This document shows, piece by piece, positions 17,180-27,395 of a stretch of 64,000 nucleotides of DNA. The notes under the pieces are model-generated. The model was not told the DNA's origin. It ran no database searches and was given only the letters and a program-made list of their open reading frames with translations. The number at the start of each line of letters is the position of its first letter. Within the stretch, counting starts at the first letter, position 1. Source of the stretch: a virus. The DNA is taken from positions 1,947 to 65,946 of the IMG/VR virus record IMGVR_UViG_3300015202_000005; one strand, given 5' to 3'. Position numbers and translations under genes: made by a program.

Positions 17180-17211
17180 CAAAGATACACCCTATTGTAC
17201 TATTTTACAAA
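17180..17211 (-). promoter_or_regulatory. Bacteroidota primary-sigma promoter for the late operon
   Basis: Minus strand TTTG-N20-TATCTTTG, an exact match to the -33/-7 consensus. Confidence 0.75.
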
Positions 17212-17292
17212 TTATTACCTTATTTATTTACTTCTCCCCTTAGTACAGAACCTTTATATCTACCTACTGTTTATATACAGCGTATTTATAAT

Positions 17293-17323
17293 TTTGTAAT
17301 GTCTGGAGTTAACCGTATATTTG
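17293..17323 (+). promoter_or_regulatory. Bacteroidota primary-sigma promoter (divergent)
   Basis: TTTG-N19-TATATTTG, 37 nt before the ATG at 17361. Confidence 0.7.
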
Positions 17324-17360: not shown

Positions 17361-17489
17361 ATGCCTAATGCAATTATTGATAATGACACATTCTGGAACG
17401 CCACACCAACACCAAATAAATCGGAACCAATCTTAACAGATGAAGAAAATCTAGCCTACACCGAACGCAATAAAGCCCTGAAACAGTAA
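17361..17489 (+). CDS. micro-ORF, 42 aa
   Basis: MPNAIIDNDTFWNATPTPNKSEPILTDEENLAYTERNKALKQ, directly after the promoter. Confidence 0.5.
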   Translation: MPNAIIDNDTFWNATPTPNKSEPILTDEENLAYTERNKALKQ

Positions 17490-17527
17490 TAACCGCAATC
17501 CTATTTTTTTTATTAAACACAATAAAT

Positions 17528-17662
17528 ATGACAATAATAAGTAAAAAACAAAGCAAAATTAAAGCATCAATGTATTATGTAAGAAGTAGATTAAAACAAA
17601 TCTACAAAGAAGAAGTTAGACAAATTATTAAAACAATAAAAATTAAAAACAATGGAATTTGA
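17528..17662 (+). CDS. micro-ORF, 44 aa, basic
   Basis: MTIISKKQSKIKASMYYVRSR...; overlaps the next start. Confidence 0.45.
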   Translation: MTIISKKQSKIKASMYYVRSRLKQIYKEEVRQIIKTIKIKNNGI

Positions 17663-17744
17663 TATTCAAAAATTAACTAAATTAATAGTAGCAGGATTTA
17701 TAGTCCTATTAATTATTATAGTTGCATTATTATTAAATAGATAA
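17652..17744 (+). CDS. micro-ORF, 30 aa, single TM helix
   Basis: MEFDIQKLTKLIVAGFIVLLIIIVALLLNR. Confidence 0.55.
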   Translation: MEFDIQKLTKLIVAGFIVLLIIIVALLLNR

Positions 17745-17747
17745 ACA

Positions 17748-17861
17748 ATGATATTAGAAATAGTACAGCACATCATGGTAATAGCATTAATAGGTTTATT
17801 ACATTATTGGATATTATCAGAAATGTTAGCATTAATATTAAGATATAAAAAACAAGTATGA
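17748..17861 (+). CDS. micro-ORF, 37 aa, single TM helix
   Basis: MILEIVQHIMVIALIGLLHYWILSEMLALILRYKKQV; ATGA overlap with the next ORF. Confidence 0.55.
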   Translation: MILEIVQHIMVIALIGLLHYWILSEMLALILRYKKQV

Positions 17862-17950
17862 TAGTAATAGAAGTTTTAATAACAAAATACTGTTTATTTA
17901 TGTTGGGGTATTTACAAATTGACCAGGATAAAAATATAAGAAAAAAATAG
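17858..17950 (+). CDS. micro-ORF, 30 aa
   Basis: MIVIEVLITKYCLFMLGYLQIDQDKNIRKK; ATGA-coupled. Confidence 0.4.
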   Translation: MIVIEVLITKYCLFMLGYLQIDQDKNIRKK

Positions 17951-17961
17951 GAAAGGAGAAA

Positions 17962-18036
17962 AGGACTAGTTAATATAATTAGTAAGTAGGACTAGTTAAT
18001 AGGACTAGTTAATAAAACTGGTAAATAAAACTGGTA
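17962..18036. repeat. short direct repeats
   Basis: AGGACTAGTTAAT at 17962, 17988 and 18001; AATAAAACTGGTA at 18011 and 18024. Confidence 0.9.
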
Positions 18037-18152
18037 GTAATTGGTAAGTAGGATTGGAAAATAAAAAATAGAAAAAAAATAGAAAAAAATTTAAGTGAGG
18101 TAGAGTAATAGGGTGTAACCCACATCAATCTTATACGTGCGGCTAAAACTTG

Positions 18153-18417
18153 AGTTGCCAATTCCCCCTCACTAAATAACAAATTCCAAAATCGGGATTT
18201 AGTATTAGTGAATTAATATTAGCAACTATCATAGTTTTAATTGTGAACTAACAAGTTCTCAATCAAACTATGGTACAACAACACAATCAGTGTTGTATTA
18301 TAATTGTTTAGTGATATAATCTATCATTTACAATTACATTACACTGATTGTGTTGTTTCAAATCGTTAGCAAAAGATTGGTTTATTGATTAGGCATACAG
18401 CGATGTGTGCCTTTTTT
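18153..18417 (+). ncRNA. candidate structured RNA (three long stem-loops plus terminator)
   Basis: Nested stems at 18153-18227, 18231-18271 and 18277-18357 (17-bp perfect IR); no ORF. Confidence 0.4.
18391..18417 (+). terminator. intrinsic terminator
   Basis: AGGCATAC-AGCGAT-GTGTGCCT followed by T-run. Confidence 0.75.
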
Positions 18418-18484
18418 GTTTAACCTATAAAGATATTTAGTGGCAATGATGCTACTAATTTTATTCACCTATTTTAATTACATT

Positions 18485-18997
18485 ATGATATTTATTAACA
18501 AAGACGCTTTCGCAGCGTTAACTCAGGAAGACAAAGACATTTACACTTCAAGAAGTGTATCTTTTAAATTAAAGGCAAATGGTTATGTAGTAAACAACGC
18601 AACAATTCTGTCTGCACGACCACTAAGCAATGGTAATGTACTTATGACACTTAATGATAAGACAATTATGACTGTAATCGTTCCAAAAACGATAGCCGAA
18701 AATGCTTATAGAAATGGTGTTTCTGCGGGGGTATCCCGTATGATACCAAACTTGACGCACTGTTTAATATCATTTACAGCTGCAGTTAGTTTGACAGGAG
18801 AAACTTGGACAGACAAAAATGGTGTTGTGTCAAAAAGAACAAGCAACACCTTAACACCTACCGTTACAACATTAAAACCAAATTCTAGTTTGTTAATGAT
18901 ACTGGAAACAGTATCAGAAACAATTAGTAGAGATGTATTAACTGCACAACGTGCTCCAATCGTCCATGCGGATGAATTAGCACGTGTAGACGATTAG
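18485..18997 (+). CDS. hypothetical protein, possible OB-fold ssDNA-binding protein
   Basis: Likely start MIFINK; beta-rich with WTDKNG..R segment reminiscent of SSBs. Confidence 0.5.
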   Translation: MIFINKDAFAALTQEDKDIYTSRSVSFKLKANGYVVNNATILSARPLSNGNVLMTLNDKTIMTVIVPKTIAENAYRNGVSAGVSRMIPNLTHCLISFTAAVSLTGETWTDKNGVVSKRTSNTLTPTVTTLKPNSSLLMILETVSETISRDVLTAQRAPIVHADELARVDD

Positions 18998-19006
18998 TCT
19001 ACACAA

Positions 19007-19050
19007 CAGGTTATGTAGAGTAAACCACTAAGGTTGCTCTACATAGTTCT
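19007..19050 (+). repeat. conserved hairpin element, copy 1
   Basis: TATGTAGAG-TAAACCACTAAGGTTG-CTCTACATA. Confidence 0.85.
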
Positions 19051-19087
19051 GTTAATTAATCAATAGACAATTAAACAATTAAAAATT

Positions 19088-19546
19088 ATGAAAGTTTGTA
19101 TTTTAAACAACAAAATCTTCAATTATGAACACATTAGCTCTTTAAAAGAGGAGCTAAACTCAGTTTCCGTTGTTATAAGCCAAAGCGCCATAATAGGCAA
19201 CAACGTAAAATTTGGCAAAAACGTAACAATAGGTGATGACGTTAGAATAAATAGCGACGTAACAATAGGTGACAACACCTACATTGGTGATGACGTTACG
19301 ATAGGCGAAAACGCCTATATTGATGACAATTCAACTATTAAAAGAAGCGTTGTTATAACAGCACACAGATTTACTGTATGCTGGTATAGCAATGGCTATA
19401 TTCAAATAGGATGTAAAACACTTTCCATTCAGCAGTGGCAAGACCACTACATCCAAATAGGAATGGAGTTCGAGGCAACTACTAAAGAGATAGCAGAATA
19501 TAAAGGCTACATTGACTTCTGCGCATCAATGCAGAAGTTAGTTTAA
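19088..19546 (+). CDS. hexapeptide-repeat (left-handed beta-helix) protein
   Basis: IGNNVK/IGDDVR/IGDNTY/IGDDVT/IGENAY repeats; C-terminal IQIGC..W..EY domain. Confidence 0.75.
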   Translation: MKVCILNNKIFNYEHISSLKEELNSVSVVISQSAIIGNNVKFGKNVTIGDDVRINSDVTIGDNTYIGDDVTIGENAYIDDNSTIKRSVVITAHRFTVCWYSNGYIQIGCKTLSIQQWQDHYIQIGMEFEATTKEIAEYKGYIDFCASMQKLV

Positions 19547-19585
19547 TTTATTAGTTTTCAATTTTTTACATTTTAAAATACTTTT

Positions 19586-19807
19586 ATGATAGTGTTTTTA
19601 AGAACAGAATCTGCATCTCATACATGCGGATGCAGTGGTTGTACACAATGTGCAGCCACTGGTTACCACTATATCTTAGTGGATGATGCAAAGTATTTTG
19701 CGTCATTTATGTGTAGGGAAGGGAACACAGAGCCATTCTATTTGGAAGAAGGCGAAACAGAATCCGCTATTATTGCGGATGAAACTAGGTGGATACTTTG
19801 GGACTAA
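19586..19807 (+). CDS. small Cys-rich protein
   Basis: HTCGCSGCTQC putative metal-binding site. Confidence 0.6.
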   Translation: MIVFLRTESASHTCGCSGCTQCAATGYHYILVDDAKYFASFMCREGNTEPFYLEEGETESAIIADETRWILWD

Positions 19808-19809
19808 TG

Positions 19810-19853
19810 CAGGTTATATAGAGTAAACCACTAAGGTTACTCTATATAATTCT
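19810..19853 (+). repeat. conserved hairpin element, copy 2
   Basis: TTATATAGAGTA-AACCACTAAGGT-TACTCTATATAA. Confidence 0.85.
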
Positions 19854-19870
19854 ATAAATAGAACTATAAC

Positions 19871-19909
19871 AATCCACAAGGTAAACCATTTAGGTTGCCT
19901 TGTGTGATT
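19871..19909 (+). repeat. conserved hairpin element, copy 3
   Basis: CACAAGG-TAAACCATTTAGGTTG-CCTTGTG: same core, different outer stem. Confidence 0.8.
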
Positions 19910-19983
19910 TGTTGTAAAACAACAAAACCAACTTGAAACTAAAACTTGAAACTATATTATTAACAATAATAAATACATAACGT

Positions 19984-20508
19984 ATGCTTAATATAATACA
20001 ACAAAAACTTACGGAATCACCATTAGAGTATGCAATATTATTTGTACTTTGTACAATACTAGTAGCAATTACTATTGAACGAATCGTTCACTTAGTAAGA
20101 ATTCACAAAGAATTTAAACTAGCTCTTATTGAGCTAGCTACTAAATATAAAACACCAATTACCCAAACTATTACTCAAACCAGTACACCAATTACCCAAA
20201 CAGATACCCAAACAGATACACCAGTAACAGTGTATGATTACTTTATTACACAATTACAAACAAGTAATTGGAGTAATGATATGAAAGGTAATTTAAAAGA
20301 CTGTGTGTATAAACCATCAGTATCAAGACAAGTACATTGGTACAGTGATACATTTGTATCATATGTTATCAATGGTAGAGGAAATGTTAAGGTACTGAAT
20401 ATAACCAATAGTGGTTATGTTTATGCAATTAGTAATGACAATACAATGCGGAAAGGTTTTTTCATTAAGATAGGAAATATTAGTTATTTCTTATTAGATA
20501 CTAAGTAA
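19984..20508 (+). CDS. membrane-anchored protein with Thr/Gln-rich repeats
   Basis: TM segment YAILFVLCTILVAITI; TPITQT repeats. Confidence 0.7.
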   Translation: MLNIIQQKLTESPLEYAILFVLCTILVAITIERIVHLVRIHKEFKLALIELATKYKTPITQTITQTSTPITQTDTQTDTPVTVYDYFITQLQTSNWSNDMKGNLKDCVYKPSVSRQVHWYSDTFVSYVINGRGNVKVLNITNSGYVYAISNDNTMRKGFFIKIGNISYFLLDTK

Positions 20509-20788
20509 TAAATATAGGAGAAGTATAGTAATGATATAGTGTAACGTTGTTACACACAAACCACACTTCTCCTAACCTTCTTTCTATTCCAAATTCAATA
20601 CAAATTTATAGTTGTTAAACACATAGTTTTACAACTATTTAATAACAACACAATCAACAGTATTTAACTTGAAATAACAATACAGTATAAAACACTGTAT
20701 ACTAAATAAAATAACCTACATTTAATCATTAAAAAATAACAAATCATCCTTGATTTTAGTTATTTAATCACAATTTAAACACAAACTA

Positions 20789-21319
20789 ATGGTACTAAAG
20801 TACGACAAAACTTATTATGTATTTGATGTTATTGCATCAAACATAATCAACTGGTTAACACCAGTAGCATCTAACAACAATAAAGCAGGAAGTTGGAGTT
20901 TTTATTCATCGAAAAAAACCAATCTACGTTTCAGTAACCACTGGAACAATAAAAAAGGTGGTTTTTATGCTACAAAAGCACTACTTCTTTGCATTGACTG
21001 TAAAGCAGACGAATGTGATGTAATGTTCAATGGCGCATGTTACAAAATATTAGTAGATTTATCTACTAATGTTAAAACATATAACTGTTGCACTGCTTTC
21101 AATTGGCCAACTTGTACAACACAATACAAATCTTGGAGAAATCTAGGATACGATATTGACGGCTCTTTATGCCGTACAATGTCATATAAAAATGACATGA
21201 CAGAAAACAAAGATAGGGTTTCTATTAGTGAAAGCAATTTTACTAACAGTGATATTCTAACTTTCATAGAATACAACAACAGTTTTTGCAATGATAAACA
21301 AATACACAATGATGTGTAA
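20789..21319 (+). CDS. hypothetical protein
   Basis: 176 aa, LRFSNHW motif, Cys-rich. Confidence 0.65.
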   Translation: MVLKYDKTYYVFDVIASNIINWLTPVASNNNKAGSWSFYSSKKTNLRFSNHWNNKKGGFYATKALLLCIDCKADECDVMFNGACYKILVDLSTNVKTYNCCTAFNWPTCTTQYKSWRNLGYDIDGSLCRTMSYKNDMTENKDRVSISESNFTNSDILTFIEYNNSFCNDKQIHNDV

Positions 21320-21482
21320 ATTGTGTTGGTTTCCAATGATAAAATCAATGGAAATACAAAACAAAGTATATTATATTGAAAGTACTGACCCATTTGGAAG
21401 TACATTAACTACTACTTTAGAACACGCTAAATTAGTAGATTGTATGAAATGTCCAAAATGTGGTCATGCTGTTACAATATAA
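21309..21482 (+). CDS. small zinc-ribbon-like protein
   Basis: CKLC...CMKCPKCGH. Confidence 0.55.
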   Translation: MMCKLCWFPMIKSMEIQNKVYYIESTDPFGSTLTTTLEHAKLVDCMKCPKCGHAVTI

Positions 21483-21782
21483 CGTTTTTATCTATGTACG
21501 TTAACATAGATTACAATATCAGCCTCGTTGATTGAGGACAATATAAAACTGTACTTGCGCTTACAAACAAGTTCTTATCAGATAGTTAATTTTTAACTAA
21601 CAGTTTGGCAGCAAACTAATTAATAGTCTAATCAACTATACCTAAATTTGCCTATTACAACTAAAAGTGTAATAGTATATATACTAAATAGTATATAATT
21701 GTGCGGGATTATCTATTGATACGATAATTAATATTTTTAATACAAATAACACCTGTCAAGGTGTATAAATATATGAGATAAT

Positions 21783-22325
21783 ATGAATATTATAGAAATT
21801 AAAAAATCATTAGCTGCAATACGTAACTATTGCAAGTCACACATTATCATCGTAGTAGGTGATGGTGTCGGTATTAAAGTTGATGCTAGAAAAGTAGAAT
21901 TTGCAGCAACAACATTACCTAGTAACTTTACACTAGATTTAGGTGTAATCAATGCTGTTCCTGTAACAAGAGCTACATCAGTCGGTGTTATTGGATTTAC
22001 AAGTAATAACAAAACAGTCTATTTAAACGACTGTGTTTCTTATAAAGAAATGTATAATAGCAATAACAGTAGTGATTTAAGAGCTGGTATTCCATTAATG
22101 GATATACCTGGAAGTGAAAATTGTAAGTTCATACTTATATGTGAGTACAACAGGTTTGACAACAATGAAATAGCATATACCTATACTTTGTATATTTCAC
22201 CTGATATTAAAGCTGCAATAGCCTCTGAGGAAGAGGCTGACAAAGCACGTTGGAACAGTGCATATCAAAGCACAAAAAATTACCATATACCTGGTAAAAA
22301 TAACAGAGGTGGAGGTGGTAAGTAA
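21783..22325 (+). CDS. hypothetical protein
   Basis: 180-aa ORF with typical codon usage. Confidence 0.7.
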   Translation: MNIIEIKKSLAAIRNYCKSHIIIVVGDGVGIKVDARKVEFAATTLPSNFTLDLGVINAVPVTRATSVGVIGFTSNNKTVYLNDCVSYKEMYNSNNSSDLRAGIPLMDIPGSENCKFILICEYNRFDNNEIAYTYTLYISPDIKAAIASEEEADKARWNSAYQSTKNYHIPGKNNRGGGGK

Positions 22326-22388
22326 CAACAGCAACACTTAATAGAAATATTAAGTGTTGTTTATTTTTTAACATTTAAATTAAAGCGT

Positions 22389-23333
22389 ATGGTAAGATTT
22401 GTATATATTAAACAAATCAAACAAAATGAGTGGGATATTAAAACTATTACATTAATACCAACAATTAGTATGGAAATTAAAAAAGGAATAGTAATATTCC
22501 TTAGTGCATTATCTTTAATATTGCTAATATCAATATTAACAGAGAAAAATGTAACTACTCCTACTAAAGTGATACAGCTACCTGAAGAGGTAGTTGATGA
22601 AATAATAGAAATGGCAATAGATAAAAAGAAAGTTGCTAAACATAGCAATGCTTATTTAAAATCTAAAGCTAAAAAAACAACAGTAATTAATAATGAAATT
22701 ACAGCCATTCAGGTGTTAAATAAAGGCGAAGGCTTTTATTCTATCCCTTATTGGGATAATAAGCAATATAGCGTTGGCTATGGCTCTTATATTAGTTATG
22801 AAGACTGTAAAATCATATGGAAACGTATGAAAATTACAGAAATAACAGGTAAAGCAATTGCCTGGAGAATTCATTCTCTATCTAATACTAGAAATGGTTA
22901 TAAGAAAGTAATGCAAATATGCAATACTTTTAAAACTTATAAAGGTAGCCTTACTGAGAAGGAAGCATGTACTATGCGAAACAAAGAACTTAACAAGTTC
23001 TATGTTTTAGTTAATGGTAAATTTCCAAACTTACCAAGTGTACAAAAGCAAGTATTAACTTGTACAGTGTATAACACTGGTTGGTTTGGTTTTATAGGTG
23101 GTAAATCTACTACACACCATATTATACCAAAGAGCGCATTGTGTCATGCTTTAGAAACAAATCATTACTTTAGTAAACCTGTTTACACAGCATATACTAA
23201 ATTAAAAATTTGTTCTAACGGTAAGTTTAACAAAGGATTATTGCGTCGTAGATGTCTCGAAAGAGACCAATTTATGGCAAATAAAGATGTAGCTTCCCTT
23301 TCTGCTTTTAAAAAACGTTATAACAACTTTTAA
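22389..23333 (+). CDS. GH24 (phage lysozyme)-like muramidase with N-terminal membrane anchor
   Basis: EGFYSIPYWD...SVGYG (E-8x-D) and C-terminal GLLRRRCLERDQF; TM segment GIVIFLSALSLILLISIL; the true start may be the internal MEIKKG. Confidence 0.75.
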   Translation: MVRFVYIKQIKQNEWDIKTITLIPTISMEIKKGIVIFLSALSLILLISILTEKNVTTPTKVIQLPEEVVDEIIEMAIDKKKVAKHSNAYLKSKAKKTTVINNEITAIQVLNKGEGFYSIPYWDNKQYSVGYGSYISYEDCKIIWKRMKITEITGKAIAWRIHSLSNTRNGYKKVMQICNTFKTYKGSLTEKEACTMRNKELNKFYVLVNGKFPNLPSVQKQVLTCTVYNTGWFGFIGGKSTTHHIIPKSALCHALETNHYFSKPVYTAYTKLKICSNGKFNKGLLRRRCLERDQFMANKDVASLSAFKKRYNNF

Positions 23334-23335
23334 CA

Positions 23336-23434
23336 ATGACAACAGTAACAACGATTATGCTTCAAGAAGCATTAAACTATGGTGCTGAATCTTTAGAGAT
23401 ACAGAACCAATTTATTAACAATTTAAATAACTAA
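23336..23434 (+). CDS. micro-ORF, 32 aa
   Basis: MTTVTTIMLQEALNYGAESLEIQNQFINNLNN fills the gap exactly. Confidence 0.4.
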   Translation: MTTVTTIMLQEALNYGAESLEIQNQFINNLNN

Positions 23435-23439
23435 TTAGT

Positions 23440-23658
23440 ATGGCTGAAAAAATCCACGTTCCTGGAAAGTTTAAGGTAAAATCATACCTTAAAAAACAAG
23501 AAAAATTACAAGAGCCAAAAGCTAAAGAAGCTAAAGCAATTAATCTTGTAAAAAAGTTGATAAACAGAATTGAGGTATTGACAAGTACATTGTCATTACC
23601 TTTTACAGATAAAATTCAAGTTAATGCACGTATTAATGCATTAAGATTGAGAGTATAA
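23440..23658 (+). CDS. small basic protein
   Basis: 72 aa, Lys-rich, followed by a terminator. Confidence 0.6.
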   Translation: MAEKIHVPGKFKVKSYLKKQEKLQEPKAKEAKAINLVKKLINRIEVLTSTLSLPFTDKIQVNARINALRLRV

Positions 23659-23690
23659 GGTGTTTGAATTTCTCATTGGTTAACATTGTG

Positions 23691-23718
23691 CCCCTACTGT
23701 AACAAGTAGGGGTTTTTT
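23691..23718 (+). terminator. intrinsic terminator
   Basis: CCCCTACT-GTAACA-AGTAGGGG-T6. Confidence 0.85.
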
Positions 23719-23735
23719 ATTTAAAAAATTAAAGC

Positions 23736-23840
23736 ATGAATACAGTGACATTTTTCTGTTACATAGTATGCTATGTAATAGTAACATTTGGATTAATTAA
23801 TTTTCTACTAAAAGTAGAAAAACAAAAGAAAAAATCATGA
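23736..23840 (+). CDS. micro-ORF, 34 aa, single TM helix
   Basis: MNTVTFFCYIVCYVIVTFGLINFLLKVEKQKKKS; ATGA overlap. Confidence 0.55.
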   Translation: MNTVTFFCYIVCYVIVTFGLINFLLKVEKQKKKS

Positions 23841-24046
23841 CAGTATATTTATACATATGGTATGAAGTCAACTGTGATTATACTCCTGGTATGATTATAG
23901 GAACAGGTACATCTTTAGAAGATGTACGTAGAAAATTCAGTAAAGCATTAAAAGGCAATTACGACGAAGCAATGATACAAGAACCTAGTAAAATAATACC
24001 TGTATTATACGACGATGCAATTGCAACAATTTCAGGAGGTGGATGA
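23837..24046 (+). CDS. hypothetical protein
   Basis: 69 aa, ATGA-coupled at both ends. Confidence 0.65.
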   Translation: MTVYLYIWYEVNCDYTPGMIIGTGTSLEDVRRKFSKALKGNYDEAMIQEPSKIIPVLYDDAIATISGGG

Positions 24047-24168
24047 TTTATAACATCACTTCTCCCCATAAGCAGGAGTTCTTAATAAATCAACTAATCT
24101 ACTTAGAACTCTTACTTACAGGGAGACACCCAGACTGTACTTTTTCAGTTTTAACCCAGCAATCTTAA
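24043..24168 (+). CDS. micro-ORF, 41 aa
   Basis: MIYNITSPHKQEFLINQLIYLELLLTGRHPDCTFSVLTQQS; ATGA overlap. Confidence 0.35.
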   Translation: MIYNITSPHKQEFLINQLIYLELLLTGRHPDCTFSVLTQQS

Positions 24169-24264
24169 TTCAAAAATAACGTCTTAAACCACCTAAAAAC
24201 CGCTTTTTTAATCTGTCAAACTTCAATTTTGACTATCCTCCTAATTACCACTTTTAAACTGTAT

Positions 24265-24530
24265 AATCAAATGATTGTATTTAGTAGTATATTCATGCGA
24301 CTAAATCATTTTTAAAGCGGCGTGACCTTTAAAACAATCAATTAAGCCATTCACTCGGTATTATTTATTTATACTCAAATAAACATAAAAATCAACCATT
24401 CACAAAAATTGGTTAAAACCTTGTAGCTAATCAATTGATTATCAACAGTTTAACAGGTTTTAAAAAGTGCATAAGATGTAATCTTTATGCAATTTTTTAC
24501 CTTGATAATCAATTGATAATCAATACTTTA
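24265..24530. promoter_or_regulatory. candidate replication origin / IHF-type site cluster
   Basis: WATCAA-N4-TTR matches at 24265, 24429 and 24518; 17/18 inverted repeat 24428-24445 / 24502-24519. Confidence 0.45.
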
Positions 24531-24644
24531 TCTTTTTATTTTTATCAATAACTGTAAATTTTTGATTTTTTATGTATGGCCTCCAGATACCGATACAATA
24601 CAAATAAATCACAGTATTTCTGTCAAATTTTGACAATAATGCCA

Positions 24645-24652
24645 TACCTTTG
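24645..24652 (+). promoter_or_regulatory. Bacteroidota -7 promoter element
   Basis: TACCTTTG 20 nt before the ATG at 24672; -33 element weak. Confidence 0.5.
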
Positions 24653-24671
24653 TTTTCTAAATTTAAATAAA

Positions 24672-25286
24672 ATGTTAGATTTTTCAACAGTTAGTAAAGT
24701 AAAAAGTAAACAACTTGTAACAAACACAATGAATAGTAAATTTTTAAGTAAAGAAGACACTATTAAATATAATCTTTTAAATGGTAACTTTAAAGATGTT
24801 AACATAAAAAACCCATTTAGAAGTAAAAGAACATTTGAAGTATACTCAAGAACTAAAAGTATTAAACCATCAAACAACCTTAACGAAGAGCCAACATTAG
24901 ATAATCCTGTAATAATTCAAGATAAAGGAAAGCTATTAAAATATTTAATAGAATCAGATGTATATACTAGAGTATATACTAACGAAACAATAAGAGAACA
25001 AATAACAACATGGGAAAATGCAACTAAGCTATTATATTTTTATATAACTTTATATATTAATAGAAAAGCAGAAGTTATTGATTTAACGTTTAACGAAGAA
25101 ACTATGGGAATGTCTATTAATACTTATAAAAAAGCATTAGTAGAATTATTAGATGAAGCCGTAATAATTTCTGTATCTAAAATAAAGAATTTGTATTGGG
25201 TAGATTTTACTTATATATCCCCAAGTTCAAGAATTGATAAATTTCCTGAATGTATGATACAAAGAATAAGAACTAAAAAACTTTAA
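24672..25286 (+). CDS. RepL-like winged-helix replication protein
   Basis: GMSINTYKKALVELLDEAVI...LYWVD wHTH pattern; RepL-like genes occur in crAss-like phages. Confidence 0.55.
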   Translation: MLDFSTVSKVKSKQLVTNTMNSKFLSKEDTIKYNLLNGNFKDVNIKNPFRSKRTFEVYSRTKSIKPSNNLNEEPTLDNPVIIQDKGKLLKYLIESDVYTRVYTNETIREQITTWENATKLLYFYITLYINRKAEVIDLTFNEETMGMSINTYKKALVELLDEAVIISVSKIKNLYWVDFTYISPSSRIDKFPECMIQRIRTKKL

Positions 25287-25302
25287 TTAAACAAATAACA
25301 TA

Positions 25303-25689
25303 ATGAATCAAGAAGAGAAAGAAAAAAAATATGGTAAAAATCCTTTTATACCAGAACAAAATACAGAGAATTTAGAAAACATTTTAAACGCATCAGCTAC
25401 AATAACAATTAATGGAATAGTAATAGATGCTTCTAATCATACAGAAATACTACAAGACAACTCTAGTGATTTTATAAATGATTCTATTAAATTATTTAAA
25501 AAAATTAAAGAAGTAAATACACTATACTATAAATTTAAAATAAAACATCTAAGTTTTGACAATCAAAAAGTAGGAGATTTATTTAATGAATTAGAAGAAG
25601 GTTTGATATTAACATTAAATAGTATGAATAATACTACTTGTTTTATTCCACCAACTTGTATAATTGATAATTATAACGATGAAATATAA
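25303..25689 (+). CDS. hypothetical protein
   Basis: 128-aa ORF in operon. Confidence 0.6.
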   Translation: MNQEEKEKKYGKNPFIPEQNTENLENILNASATITINGIVIDASNHTEILQDNSSDFINDSIKLFKKIKEVNTLYYKFKIKHLSFDNQKVGDLFNELEEGLILTLNSMNNTTCFIPPTCIIDNYNDEI

Positions 25690-25794
25690 ACAATAAAAAT
25701 AAAGAGCAAACATACTATAATTAAGTAACATGTAAGCGAGGTTTAGTAGTTACCCTAACAAAACTACATTTTTTAATAATAAACAATAAACAAT

Positions 25795-26046
25795 ATGGAT
25801 GAAAAACACAGATTAATAATTGACCTATCAGATAAACTAATAAACTATTGTAAATACAGTAACAGTAGATTTGATGTTAGTTTATACAGCTTATATACTA
25901 AAATTATAAAAAATAATTTAGTAGATGAAGCAAACCAGGAGTTTAAAGAATTGAGTAAGTACCTGCATGAATCCTACTTACGTCAGTTAGAAGGTTATAA
26001 ACAATGTTTTATTAACTTATATAAAGTACACAATAACAATGTATAA
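25795..26046 (+). CDS. hypothetical protein
   Basis: 83-aa ORF. Confidence 0.55.
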   Translation: MDEKHRLIIDLSDKLINYCKYSNSRFDVSLYSLYTKIIKNNLVDEANQEFKELSKYLHESYLRQLEGYKQCFINLYKVHNNNV

Positions 26047-26212
26047 AACATTAAACAACGAACAACTACTAATTGAATACAAATTAGTAGCAAAACAATA
26101 TGATGATTTTGTATTCCCTAAATATGCTACAAATAAGCATAGATTAGAAGAAGCAAGACTTCATGCAAACTTAAAACTTATTAATAACGAATTAAAAAAA
26201 CGAAAGTTATGA
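26039..26212 (+). CDS. small hypothetical protein, 57 aa
   Basis: MYKTLNNEQLLIEYK...; overlaps both neighbours; absent from the provided track. Confidence 0.55.
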   Translation: MYKTLNNEQLLIEYKLVAKQYDDFVFPKYATNKHRLEEARLHANLKLINNELKKRKL

Positions 26213-26400
26213 CACATGAAGAAAAAGTATTAGATAGCTGGTCACAAGACCTAAACAACAACATTAGCAGACTAGCTGCTCAAAACGAACTGTTAAAAAC
26301 AGAAAATGAAGAGTTAAAAGCCTTCATTGAAATACTAAAGAAAAAAAAACAAGATGTAAAAAAAGAACACGCTCTTTACCTACATTCACTATTTTATTAA
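26209..26400 (+). CDS. small coiled-coil protein
   Basis: 63 aa with heptad pattern. Confidence 0.55.
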   Translation: MTHEEKVLDSWSQDLNNNISRLAAQNELLKTENEELKAFIEILKKKKQDVKKEHALYLHSLFY

Positions 26401-26423
26401 TTAACAATTTAAACATATAACAT

Positions 26424-26855: not shown

Positions 26856-26884
26856 GGTTTGAGTTGAAATTAAATAAATTGTCG

Positions 26885-26920
26885 AAGCCGTAGTAACGAA
26901 TTATTATTACGGCTTTTTTT
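26885..26920 (+). terminator. intrinsic terminator
   Basis: AAGCCGTAGTAA...TTATTACGGCTT plus T-run. Confidence 0.85.
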
Positions 26921-26945
26921 ATTAAACAATTAATAATCAAGAAAT

Positions 26946-27395
26946 ATGGGGTTACTAAATTTAGTGAACAAACCAATATTTGAACAACCAATAAAAAAGA
27001 TTGAACATAGTAAACTAATACTGTCAATCGAACAGATTAAACAGTTGAAGAAAGTACTAGACAATTATAGATTGTTTAGTAATATGTCCTATTATTCTTC
27101 TATTATTAAAATAACAGAAGATGCACTAAATACTAGTGGATTAATGCAAGCCTTAAATACTAGTGGGATAAAACTAATACAAACATCTGAACTTACACAT
27201 CAAATTATACTTGAATTTAAAAATAAAATACTTGTATATATTTATTGTAATAGTATTAAAGACAAGTTTATAGTTACAGTTAAAACTGATAACTACGACG
27301 AAATCAATGATATTGAAGATGAAAGTGTAGTATTTGAAAAGGAGTATGTAAATCCGTTTATAATATCACAAAACTATAAAAGAATAAAAAAATGA
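26946..27395 (+). CDS. hypothetical protein
   Basis: 149 aa, ATGA-coupled to the helicase. Confidence 0.6.
   Translation: MGLLNLVNKPIFEQPIKKIEHSKLILSIEQIKQLKKVLDNYRLFSNMSYYSSIIKITEDALNTSGLMQALNTSGIKLIQTSELTHQIILEFKNKILVYIYCNSIKDKFIVTVKTDNYDEINDIEDESVVFEKEYVNPFIISQNYKRIKK

What the first reader, a model, noticed from the sequence alone, without database searches (positions are those of the whole stretch)
18153..18417. Candidate ~270-nt structured ncRNA at the head of the early region
Seen: three consecutive long stems, namely AGTTGC..TCACTAA..AAATTCC/GGGATTT..TTAGTGA..GCAACT, then ATAGTTT..GAACT/AGTTC..AAACTAT, then an 81-nt hairpin closed by the perfect 17-bp IR AACAACACAATCAGTGT/ACACTGATTGTGTTGTT, followed by an intrinsic terminator. 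No ORF. It is not a tRNA and I do not recognise a family. Its 5' arm 13-mer recurs at 20644-20656.
Basis: partly seen in the sequence, partly recalled or inferred. Interest (0 to 1): 0.6.

Follow-up and report, generated by a model that had tools for sequence, protein, structure and literature searches.

The report
Triple hairpin block before phage early genes
A deeply divergent, uncultured crAss-like phage carries three very stable back-to-back hairpins followed by a transcription terminator just before its early genes. This is most likely a folded, nuclease-resistant RNA tail or non-coding RNA, but the sequence alone cannot exclude a DNA-level role.

Summary
Window 18153-18357 holds three abutting hairpins of 75, 47 and 81 nt. 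The third is closed by a perfect 17-bp inverted repeat, and a strong + strand intrinsic terminator follows at 18391-18418. The block folds far better than shuffles (z about -9; each hairpin z -5 to -8), has no ORF, no tRNA and no Rfam family.

The "discrete ncRNA at the head of the early region" reading is only partly supported.
- The hairpins fold equally well on both strands. Only the terminator is strand-specific.
- No promoter was found directly upstream. The nearest Bacteroidota-type promoter (17293-17323) drives five micro-ORFs (17361-17950), which makes the block a possible 470-nt structured 3' tail.
- A 13-nt tandem array lies in between.
- Every intergenic region of the early arm, up to 26.4 kb, is similarly hairpin-dense. 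The target is the extreme case.
- The 13-mer recurrence at 20644 is chance.

Covariation is therefore untested.

Best guess (0.45): a transcribed, nuclease-resistant structured RNA module, like the abundant early non-coding RNAs of phi14:2. Rivals: a DNA-level palindrome cluster (0.28), an antitermination leader (0.10), non-adaptive palindromes (0.15). Interest is moderate.

The parts
17293..17323 (+). Bacteroidota-type promoter-like site (TTTG-N19-TATATTTG) heading the rightward arm. Its leftward twin is at 17211-17180.
   Evidence: two of the four full matches in the 64-kb window lie back to back in this divergent gap, each correctly oriented. The count across the whole window is at chance level, so position is the only argument.
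17361..17950 (+). Five tightly packed micro-ORFs (42, 44, 30, 37 and 30 aa). Two look like clear single-pass membrane peptides, a third is hydrophobic, and one is very basic.
   Evidence: start/stop overlaps at 17652/17662 and 17858/17861. No homology was tested.
17962..18036 (.). 13-nt-period tandem array of about 6 units. GGACTAGTTAATA occurs 3 times exactly, then AAACTGGTA twice.
   Evidence: TRF. The exact 13-mer occurs only here in the window.
18063..18089 (.). A-rich 11-nt repeat (AAAAAATAGAA, 2.5 copies).
   Evidence: TRF.
18153..18227 (+). Hairpin 1: 75 nt, about 25 bp in four helices, with a 6x6 internal loop whose 5' side is UCCCCC.
   Evidence: -20.4 (+) and -23.0 (-) kcal/mol; z -5.5 and -4.7.
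18228..18274 (+). Hairpin 2: 47 nt, 19 bp. It abuts hairpin 1 with no spacer.
   Evidence: -16.0 and -16.7 kcal/mol; z -5.9 and -5.4.
18277..18357 (+). Hairpin 3: 81 nt, with a perfect 17-bp closing stem (longer than the longest perfect stem, 13 bp, found in the genome-wide scan, which allowed loops up to 45 nt) plus two 7-bp inner helices.
   Evidence: -33.1 and -33.2 kcal/mol; z -7.3 and -8.0. One search found no other perfect stem longer than 13 bp in the genome with a loop of 45 nt or less.
18391..18418 (+). Intrinsic terminator: 9-bp stem with 4 G-C pairs as scored by the scan, GCGA loop, U6 tract. It is specific to the + strand.
18485..18997 (+). First sizeable rightward gene (170 aa, unknown function). 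The true start is ATG 18485.
   Evidence: homologues of 55-69% identity all start at MLFINKD. No Pfam or PHROG hit.

Best explanation
The block is transcribed rightward as RNA. It is either the roughly 470-nt untranslated tail of the first rightward transcript (promoter at 17293-17323, five micro-ORFs, repeat spacer, three hairpins, terminator at 18418), or a shorter transcript from an unrecognised promoter in 18090-18152.

The three long, abutting hairpins plus the terminator hairpin would form a compact 3' module that resists exonucleases. This module would accumulate as a stable non-coding RNA. It could also mark RNase III-type processing sites that separate this unit from the early genes beginning at 18485.

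Shown: the structure, its significance, the lack of coding capacity, the + strand terminator, and the absence of any earlier terminator.

Inferred: that the region is transcribed, that the hairpins act at the RNA level, and that the product is stable. Any trans-acting role of the RNA is unknown.
For: - The structure is far beyond chance.
- A strong + strand-only intrinsic terminator lies 33 nt after hairpin 3. The scan found no + strand terminator between the micro-ORF stop (17950) and hairpin 1. Its one further hit is the tip of hairpin 3 (18278-18296). The 470 nt are therefore placed inside a transcription unit rather than after it.
- The same layout recurs at 23334-23725: ORF stop, about 350 nt of hairpin-rich non-coding sequence, then a strong terminator (z -5.5).
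- All early-arm intergenic regions fold with z -4 to -11. Replication-module intergenic regions do not, with z near 0.
- 32 of the 45 most stable 120-nt windows of the 80-kb genome lie in 16.9-24.2 kb.
- Distant relatives (TerL 33-35% identical) also carry strongly folding non-coding stretches in their early arm, and these favour the sense strand. L011 4060-4540 gives -137 sense against -104 antisense.
- In phi14:2, two long early intergenic regions are transcribed above most genes from the first time point and stay abundant. The authors call them long non-coding RNAs of unknown function (bioRxiv 10.1101/2020.03.07.982082).
Against: - The hairpins fold as well or slightly better on the - strand.
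- In WC-only folds, transition-type mismatches are not biased. Within the block there is one A.C (in hairpin 1) and one G.T (in the terminator stem). Across the early arm there are six G.T against three A.C.
- Long, perfect, strand-neutral stems are more typical of DNA palindromes or young elements than of old structured RNAs.
- No promoter was found next to the block.
- An iteron-like array lies immediately upstream.
- There are no conservation or covariation data.
- The phi14:2 non-coding regions are not hairpin-rich and share no sequence with this block, so the analogy is positional only.
Confidence: 0.45

Rival explanations
1. The block is a DNA-level palindrome cluster. The three inverted repeats extrude as cruciforms or single-strand hairpins and act on DNA together with the 13-nt iteron-like array and the A-rich repeat. 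They could form a replication origin of the lambdoid layout (iterons, A/T-rich tract, palindrome). They could also be a checkpoint or entry site for the injected virion RNA polymerase, which in phi14:2 transcribes single-stranded but not double-stranded DNA.
For: - The hairpins are strand-neutral under both RNA and DNA parameters.
- Hairpin 3 has a perfect 17-bp stem, longer than any perfect stem found in the genome-wide scan.
- A unique 13-nt tandem array and an 11-nt A-rich repeat lie 60-190 nt upstream.
- The phage encodes a giant virion-RNAP-type protein (4046 aa).
- phi14:2 gp66 needs single-stranded templates, and no sequence motif was found upstream of its early transcripts.
- N4 virion RNAP uses DNA hairpin promoters (PMC4496689, listed; the details are from my own knowledge).
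Against: - The cumulative G-C and A-T skew minima lie at 17.4-17.6 kb, the gene-orientation switch, and not at the block.
- There are no DnaA boxes nearby and no recognisable initiator gene next to it.
- The hairpins share no sequence with each other or with other early hairpins. Their stems (19-31 bp) are far from the N4 type (5-7 bp stem, 3-nt loop).
- A terminator directly downstream would stop any transcript started in the hairpins before it reaches the first gene.
- The phi14:2 early region is not hairpin-dense.
Confidence: 0.28
2. The block is a cis-acting RNA leader that controls read-through of the terminator at 18391-18418 and of later terminators. It would be a processive antiterminator in the manner of HK022 put, Tn916 canT or Bacillus EAR. 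The single host-type promoter at 17293-17323 could then express the terminator-punctuated early arm.
For: - Multi-hairpin RNA sits immediately upstream of the first of five predicted + strand terminators (18391, 19511, 22330, 23690, 26884).
- Spacers between hairpins are 0-2 nt, as between the two put stem-loops (own knowledge).
- No TAnnTTTG site lies in the intergenic gaps between 17605 and 21642. The only + strand site there (20349) is inside an ORF.
- The terminator at 26884-26916 ends about 26 nt before the next ORF (26946), so read-through is needed there.
- canT is a 452-nt multi-stem-loop RNA just upstream of terminator T1 (PMC11658703).
Against: - In the one crAss-like phage studied, early genes are made by the rifampicin-resistant virion RNAP and not by the host enzyme.
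- No alternative antiterminator pairing with the terminator stem appears in any fold.
- There is no sequence or family match.
- The argument is purely positional.
Confidence: 0.1
3. The palindromes are non-adaptive or strain-private. They would be products of template switching or recombination in a fast-evolving, AT-rich early region, tolerated because they lie in non-coding DNA. At most they would act as generic hairpin punctuation or recombination joints, loosely like PeSL cassettes of T4-type phages.
For: - Perfect, strand-neutral stems suggest a recent origin.
- Hairpin density is a property of the whole early arm, not of this site alone.
- No relative with this element could be found in IMG/VR or the JGI metagenomes. 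A GTDB genome scan gave one chance match.
That note is unchecked.
Against: - Three different long palindromes packed with 0-2 nt spacers directly in front of a strong terminator looks organised.
- Non-coding sequence takes up about 3 kb of a compact 80-kb genome, which argues for selection.
- Unlike PeSLs, the hairpins are not repeated cassettes and carry no promoter motif.
Confidence: 0.15

Closest known systems
Early long non-coding RNAs of Cellulophaga crAss-like phage phi14:2 (g004-g005 and g005-g006 intergenic regions; Drobysheva et al., bioRxiv 10.1101/2020.03.07.982082)
   Same: Both are non-coding stretches several hundred nt long, lying among small unknown genes in the early arm of a crAss-like phage with a giant virion RNAP, on the sense strand of early transcription. 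The phi14:2 RNAs are very abundant and persistent, and their function is unknown.
   Different: There is no sequence similarity. The phi14:2 regions are not unusually hairpin-rich. Transcription of the present block is not shown. TerL identity to every deposited crAss-like phage is below 30%.
RNA-based processive antitermination elements: HK022 put, Tn916 canT, Bacillus EAR (PMC11658703)
   Same: Both are multi-stem-loop RNAs placed between a promoter and the first intrinsic terminator of a long, terminator-punctuated operon of a mobile element.
   Different: There is no sequence or covariance-model match. The reading polymerase is unknown. The stems are much longer and more perfect than those of put. 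No functional evidence exists.
Coliphage N4 early hairpin promoters for virion RNAP (PMC4496689)
   Same: Both are DNA inverted repeats in the early region of a phage that injects its own RNA polymerase.
   Different: N4 hairpins have 5-7 bp stems, 3-nt loops and conserved sequence in three copies (own knowledge). Here the stems are 19-31 bp, no sequence is shared, and a terminator follows directly. The crAss RNAP is an unrelated two-barrel enzyme.
Lambdoid replication origins (iterons, A/T-rich tract, palindrome)
   Same: The order of elements matches: a tandem short-repeat array, then an A-rich tract, then palindromes, all within a transcribed region.
   Different: No initiator gene, no DnaA boxes and no skew signal occur at the site. 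There are three large palindromes rather than one 28-bp palindrome.
PeSL promoter-stem-loop cassettes of T4-type phages (PMC2839356, PMC4122927)
   Same: Both involve stem-loops punctuating small early ORFs in a plastic region.
   Different: PeSLs are repeated, conserved promoter-terminator cassettes. The hairpins here are unique sequences with no promoter motif.

Membership tests
Any Rfam 15 family | Covariance-model score at or above the family's gathering threshold | tested here: not met
   One search found 0 hits in the window. In one search the best hit was MIR8706 at 25.8 bits against a 95-bit cutoff, a generic long-hairpin look-alike.
Intrinsic (Rho-independent) terminator (18391-18418 only) | G+C-rich stem-loop directly followed by a U tract on the transcribed strand | tested here: met
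   9-bp stem, GCGA loop, TTTTTTGTTT. There is no T tract on the - strand.
crAss-like early non-coding RNA (phi14:2 type) | Long non-coding stretch in the early arm, on the early sense strand | tested here: met
   (no ORF). (crAss capsid, PolA, giant RNAP-type ORF; rightward arm of small unknown genes).
crAss-like early non-coding RNA (phi14:2 type) | Abundant, early and persistent transcript | not testable with these tools
   This needs RNA-seq or a northern blot of an infection. The phage is uncultured.
crAss-like early non-coding RNA (phi14:2 type) | Sequence or structure homology to the phi14:2 regions | tested here: not met
   One search gave only low-complexity A-rich matches. One search showed the phi14:2 regions are not hairpin-dense.
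N4-type hairpin promoter | Short (5-7 bp) stem, 3-nt loop, and conserved flanking sequence repeated upstream of early genes | tested here: not met
   stems of 19-31 bp and loops of 4-6 nt; no motif shared among the three hairpins or with other early intergenic regions.
put/canT/EAR-type antiterminator RNA | Structured RNA between a promoter and the first terminator of a multi-terminator operon | tested here: met
   This is position only.
put/canT/EAR-type antiterminator RNA | Confers terminator read-through in cis | not testable with these tools
   This needs a reporter assay.
Iteron-type replication origin | Tandem short repeats plus an A/T-rich tract | tested here: met
   13-nt period over 17962-18036 and 11-nt period over 18063-18089.
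Iteron-type replication origin | Adjacent initiator gene, DnaA boxes, or a skew inflection at the site | tested here: not met
   Searches found no initiator-like domain. One search found no DnaA box. One search placed the skew minimum at 17.4-17.6 kb, the strand switch.
PeSL cassette | Repeated, conserved promoter + stem-loop unit flanking ORFs | tested here: not met
   the three hairpins are unique sequences.

The most novel reading that the evidence does not exclude
The palindromes, and the hairpin-dense early arm as a whole, may be structure-defined, sequence-independent single-strand entry sites for the injected two-barrel virion RNA polymerase. That would explain why no early-promoter motif was found in phi14:2, and why that enzyme transcribes only single-stranded DNA in vitro.
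Probability: 0.08. Interest if true: 0.85.

Novelty: new member of a known kind. Interest (0 to 1): 0.35.

Why it matters
crAss-like phages are among the most abundant viruses of Bacteroidota. Their early transcription programme is poorly understood: the promoter read by the injected RNA polymerase is undefined, and the abundant early non-coding RNAs of phi14:2 have no known function. A lineage whose early arm is packed with very stable hairpins, with this triple hairpin as the clearest case, gives a concrete object to test. The possible roles are a stable RNA, an antitermination leader, or a DNA hairpin signal for the virion polymerase. On present evidence it is a well-defined but unexplained element in a single uncultured genome, so its value is as a lead rather than a result.

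Tried and rejected
Searches for homologous DNA:
- blastn against 50,697 phage records found no match.
- Protein-guided scans of IMG/VR used the right-hand neighbour gene, the exonuclease, TerL and the 218-aa left neighbour. Only two short contigs of a 66%-TerL relative were found, and they stop just short of the divergent region.
- JGI metagenomes were scanned with an alignment and with a degenerate pattern for the invariant peptide I/V-LSARPLSNGN-x-L. Nothing was found.
- The same pattern gave nothing in IMG/VR and one chance hit, in Peribacillus, in GTDB genomes.
The ENA/Logan contigs that encode P0002-P0009 could therefore not be read.

Readings considered and rejected or left undecided:
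- Hidden ORF under TGA=W or TAG=Q: none.
- tRNA or tmRNA: none.
- Repeated promoter box in early intergenic regions: only AT-rich noise. AACTTGAR is not enriched overall.
- DnaA boxes: none nearby.
- GC or AT skew as an origin signal: it follows the gene-orientation switch.
- Strand assignment from G.T against A.C mismatches: too few events, 6 against 3.
- Riboswitch-type attenuator: no alternative pairing that disrupts the terminator.
- Covariation in distant relatives: L006 and L011 are identical over the overlap.
- The 13-mer recurrence at 20644: chance.
- Ro60/Y-RNA idea, prompted by the TROVE protein among crAss001 early genes (PMC8375218): no TROVE-sized early ORF, no Pfam hit and no Rfam hit.

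Full report
**Context.** The window is bases 1947-65946 of a 79,856-bp IMG/VR virus record estimated 98% complete. It is a crAss-like phage. It has a Crass_capsid major capsid protein, family A DNA polymerase, DnaB-like and SF1/SF2 helicases, and leftward ORFs of 4046 and 1542 aa of the virion-RNAP-locus type. G+C is 26-34%. Its TerL is below 30% identical to every deposited phage. The nearest IMG/VR contigs are at 66% (two short fragments) and 33-35%. It therefore represents a deep, unsampled lineage.

**The observation.** The quoted stems are all present. The + strand RNA fold of 18153-18417 gives three consecutive hairpins:
- 18153-18227 (75 nt);
- 18228-18274 (47 nt, no spacer);
- 18277-18357 (81 nt, 2-nt spacer, closed by a perfect 17-bp stem).

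A terminator follows at 18391-18412 plus U6. The energy is -86.8 kcal/mol against -44.1 +/- 4.6 for dinucleotide shuffles (z -9.4). Each hairpin alone is significant, with z -5.5, -5.9 and -7.3. The 17-bp stem is longer than the longest perfect stem (13 bp) that a genome-wide scan found with loops of 45 nt or less. There is no ORF within the block under tables 11, 4 or TAG=Q, no tRNA and no Rfam family. The recurrence of the 13-mer at 20644 is real but meaningless: 96.5% of random 265-nt segments of this window have one.

**What surrounds it.**
- The true divergence point of the genome is 17182-17293. Two of the four full Bacteroidota-type promoter matches in the window (TTTG-N17-21-TAnnTTTG) lie there back to back, one per direction.
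- The rightward promoter is followed by five packed micro-ORFs, 17361-17950 (42, 44, 30, 37 and 30 aa; two are clear single-pass membrane-like peptides and a third is hydrophobic).
- Next comes a unique 13-nt-period tandem array, 17962-18036. GGACTAGTTAATA occurs three times exactly and nowhere else in the window.
- After it come an 11-nt A-rich repeat (18063-18089), a 60-nt G+C-richer spacer, the three hairpins and the terminator.
- The first sizeable gene starts 67 nt later. Its real start is ATG 18485, as alignment with homologues of 55-69% identity shows.
- No TAnnTTTG site occurs on either strand between 17605 and 20348.
- The scan finds no + strand terminator between 17950 and hairpin 1. 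Its only other hit before 18391 is the tip of hairpin 3 (18278-18296).

If the 17293 promoter is real, the hairpins are therefore the end of a transcript of about 1.1 kb. A separate promoter just upstream of 18153 is neither visible nor excluded.

**The block is the extreme of a regional property.**
- In a genome-wide sliding fold, 32 of the 45 most stable 120-nt windows lie in 16.9-24.2 kb, which is 9% of the genome.
- Every intergenic region from 18153 to 26423 folds with z -4 to -11, on both strands. Intergenic regions of the replication module have z near 0.
- The layout "ORF stop, several hundred nt of hairpins, strong terminator" recurs at 23334-23725.
- Distant relatives also have strongly folding non-coding stretches in their early arm. 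In L011 (identical to L006 over the overlap), the 480 nt after the second early ORF begin with two hairpins of 75-80 nt, end in a terminator, and fold at -137 kcal/mol on the sense strand against -104 on the antisense.

**RNA or DNA?** Sequence alone could not settle this.
- The three hairpins are strand-neutral: +/- energies are -20.4/-23.0, -16.0/-16.7 and -33.1/-33.2 kcal/mol.
- DNA-parameter z scores are -10.5 and -11.1.
- In WC-only folds, the block holds one A.C (in hairpin 1) and one G.T (in the terminator stem). The early arm as a whole holds six G.T against three A.C.
- The only strand-specific feature is the terminator, which points to rightward transcription through the block.
- For a DNA role, the iteron-like array and A-rich repeat upstream recall the lambdoid origin layout. 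However, the cumulative skew minima lie at 17.4-17.6 kb, the strand switch. There are no DnaA boxes, and no initiator-like domain is encoded nearby.

**Literature anchor.**
- In phi14:2, the one crAss-like phage with a mapped transcription programme, two long early intergenic regions are transcribed above most genes from the first time point and do not decline. The authors call them long non-coding RNAs of unknown function.
- The same work shows that the virion RNAP gp66 transcribes single-stranded or denatured DNA but not double-stranded DNA, and that early transcripts share no upstream motif (bioRxiv 10.1101/2020.03.07.982082).
- The phi14:2 regions are not hairpin-dense and share no sequence with this block. 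The parallel is therefore positional.
- RNA-based processive antiterminators (put, EAR, canT) are multi-stem-loop RNAs placed before the first terminator of long operons of mobile elements (PMC11658703). The position here fits, and nothing else could be tested.

**Verdict.** I commit to a transcribed, nuclease-resistant structured RNA module at the end of the first rightward unit (0.45). The rivals are a DNA-level palindrome cluster acting as an origin or as a signal for the virion RNAP (0.28), a cis antitermination leader (0.10), and non-adaptive, strain-private palindromes (0.15).

The decisive data are the homologous loci. Relatives exist only in ENA/Logan, including P0008 on a 20.6-kb contig.

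Earlier notes of this scan on the same window (e1-5353957, e1-5353959, e1-5353960) drew attention to other hairpin sets and to an origin candidate at 24.2-24.7 kb. I checked only the folding of those regions. Notes on other crAss-like phages (for example e1-5947226) gave the PeSL comparison as a lead.

Noticed in passing
window 17180-17323: A back-to-back pair of full Bacteroidota-type promoter matches (TTTG-N19/20-TAnnTTTG), one per strand, marks the true divergence point between the leftward structural and packaging genes and the rightward arm.
   Followed up: partly
window 17361-17950: An operon of five micro-ORFs (42, 44, 30, 37 and 30 aa) with overlapping stops and starts. Two look like clear single-pass membrane peptides, a third is hydrophobic, and one is very basic.
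   Followed up: no
window 17962-18089: A unique 13-nt-period tandem array (GGACTAGTTAATA three times exactly, AAACTGGTA twice) followed by an 11-nt A-rich repeat. It looks like an iteron or operator array, and no binding protein was identified.
   Followed up: partly
window 19586-19807: The 73-aa Cys-rich ORF region folds much better on the + strand (-73 against -54 kcal/mol; z -6.0 against -4.0). It may be a structured RNA, a small zinc-binding protein, or both.
   Followed up: no
window 20509-20788, 21320-21782, 23334-24575, 25690-26423: All long intergenic regions of the early arm are hairpin-dense (z -4 to -7.5), mostly on both strands. Together they make about 3 kb of structured non-coding DNA.
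   Followed up: partly
window 26884-26946: A strong + strand terminator ends only about 26 nt before the next ORF (26946). Expression of the downstream replication genes seems to need read-through or antitermination.
   Followed up: no
L011 4060-4540 (- strand; identical in L006 1-480): A distant relative (TerL 35%) has a 1.4-kb non-coding stretch in its early arm. It begins with two hairpins of 75-80 nt and contains a roughly 270-nt G+C-richer, irregular, sense-biased fold ending in a terminator. It is a better ncRNA-gene candidate than the target, and it has no Rfam match.
   Followed up: partly
window 19088-19546: An early 152-aa protein made of hexapeptide (left-handed beta-helix) repeats. 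Its repeated codons create apparent hairpins inside the ORF.
   Followed up: no
window 18485: The first sizeable early gene starts at ATG 18485 (MIFINKD...), not at GTG 18440. Homologues (55-69% identity) exist only in ENA, Logan and JGI short contigs.
   Followed up: yes
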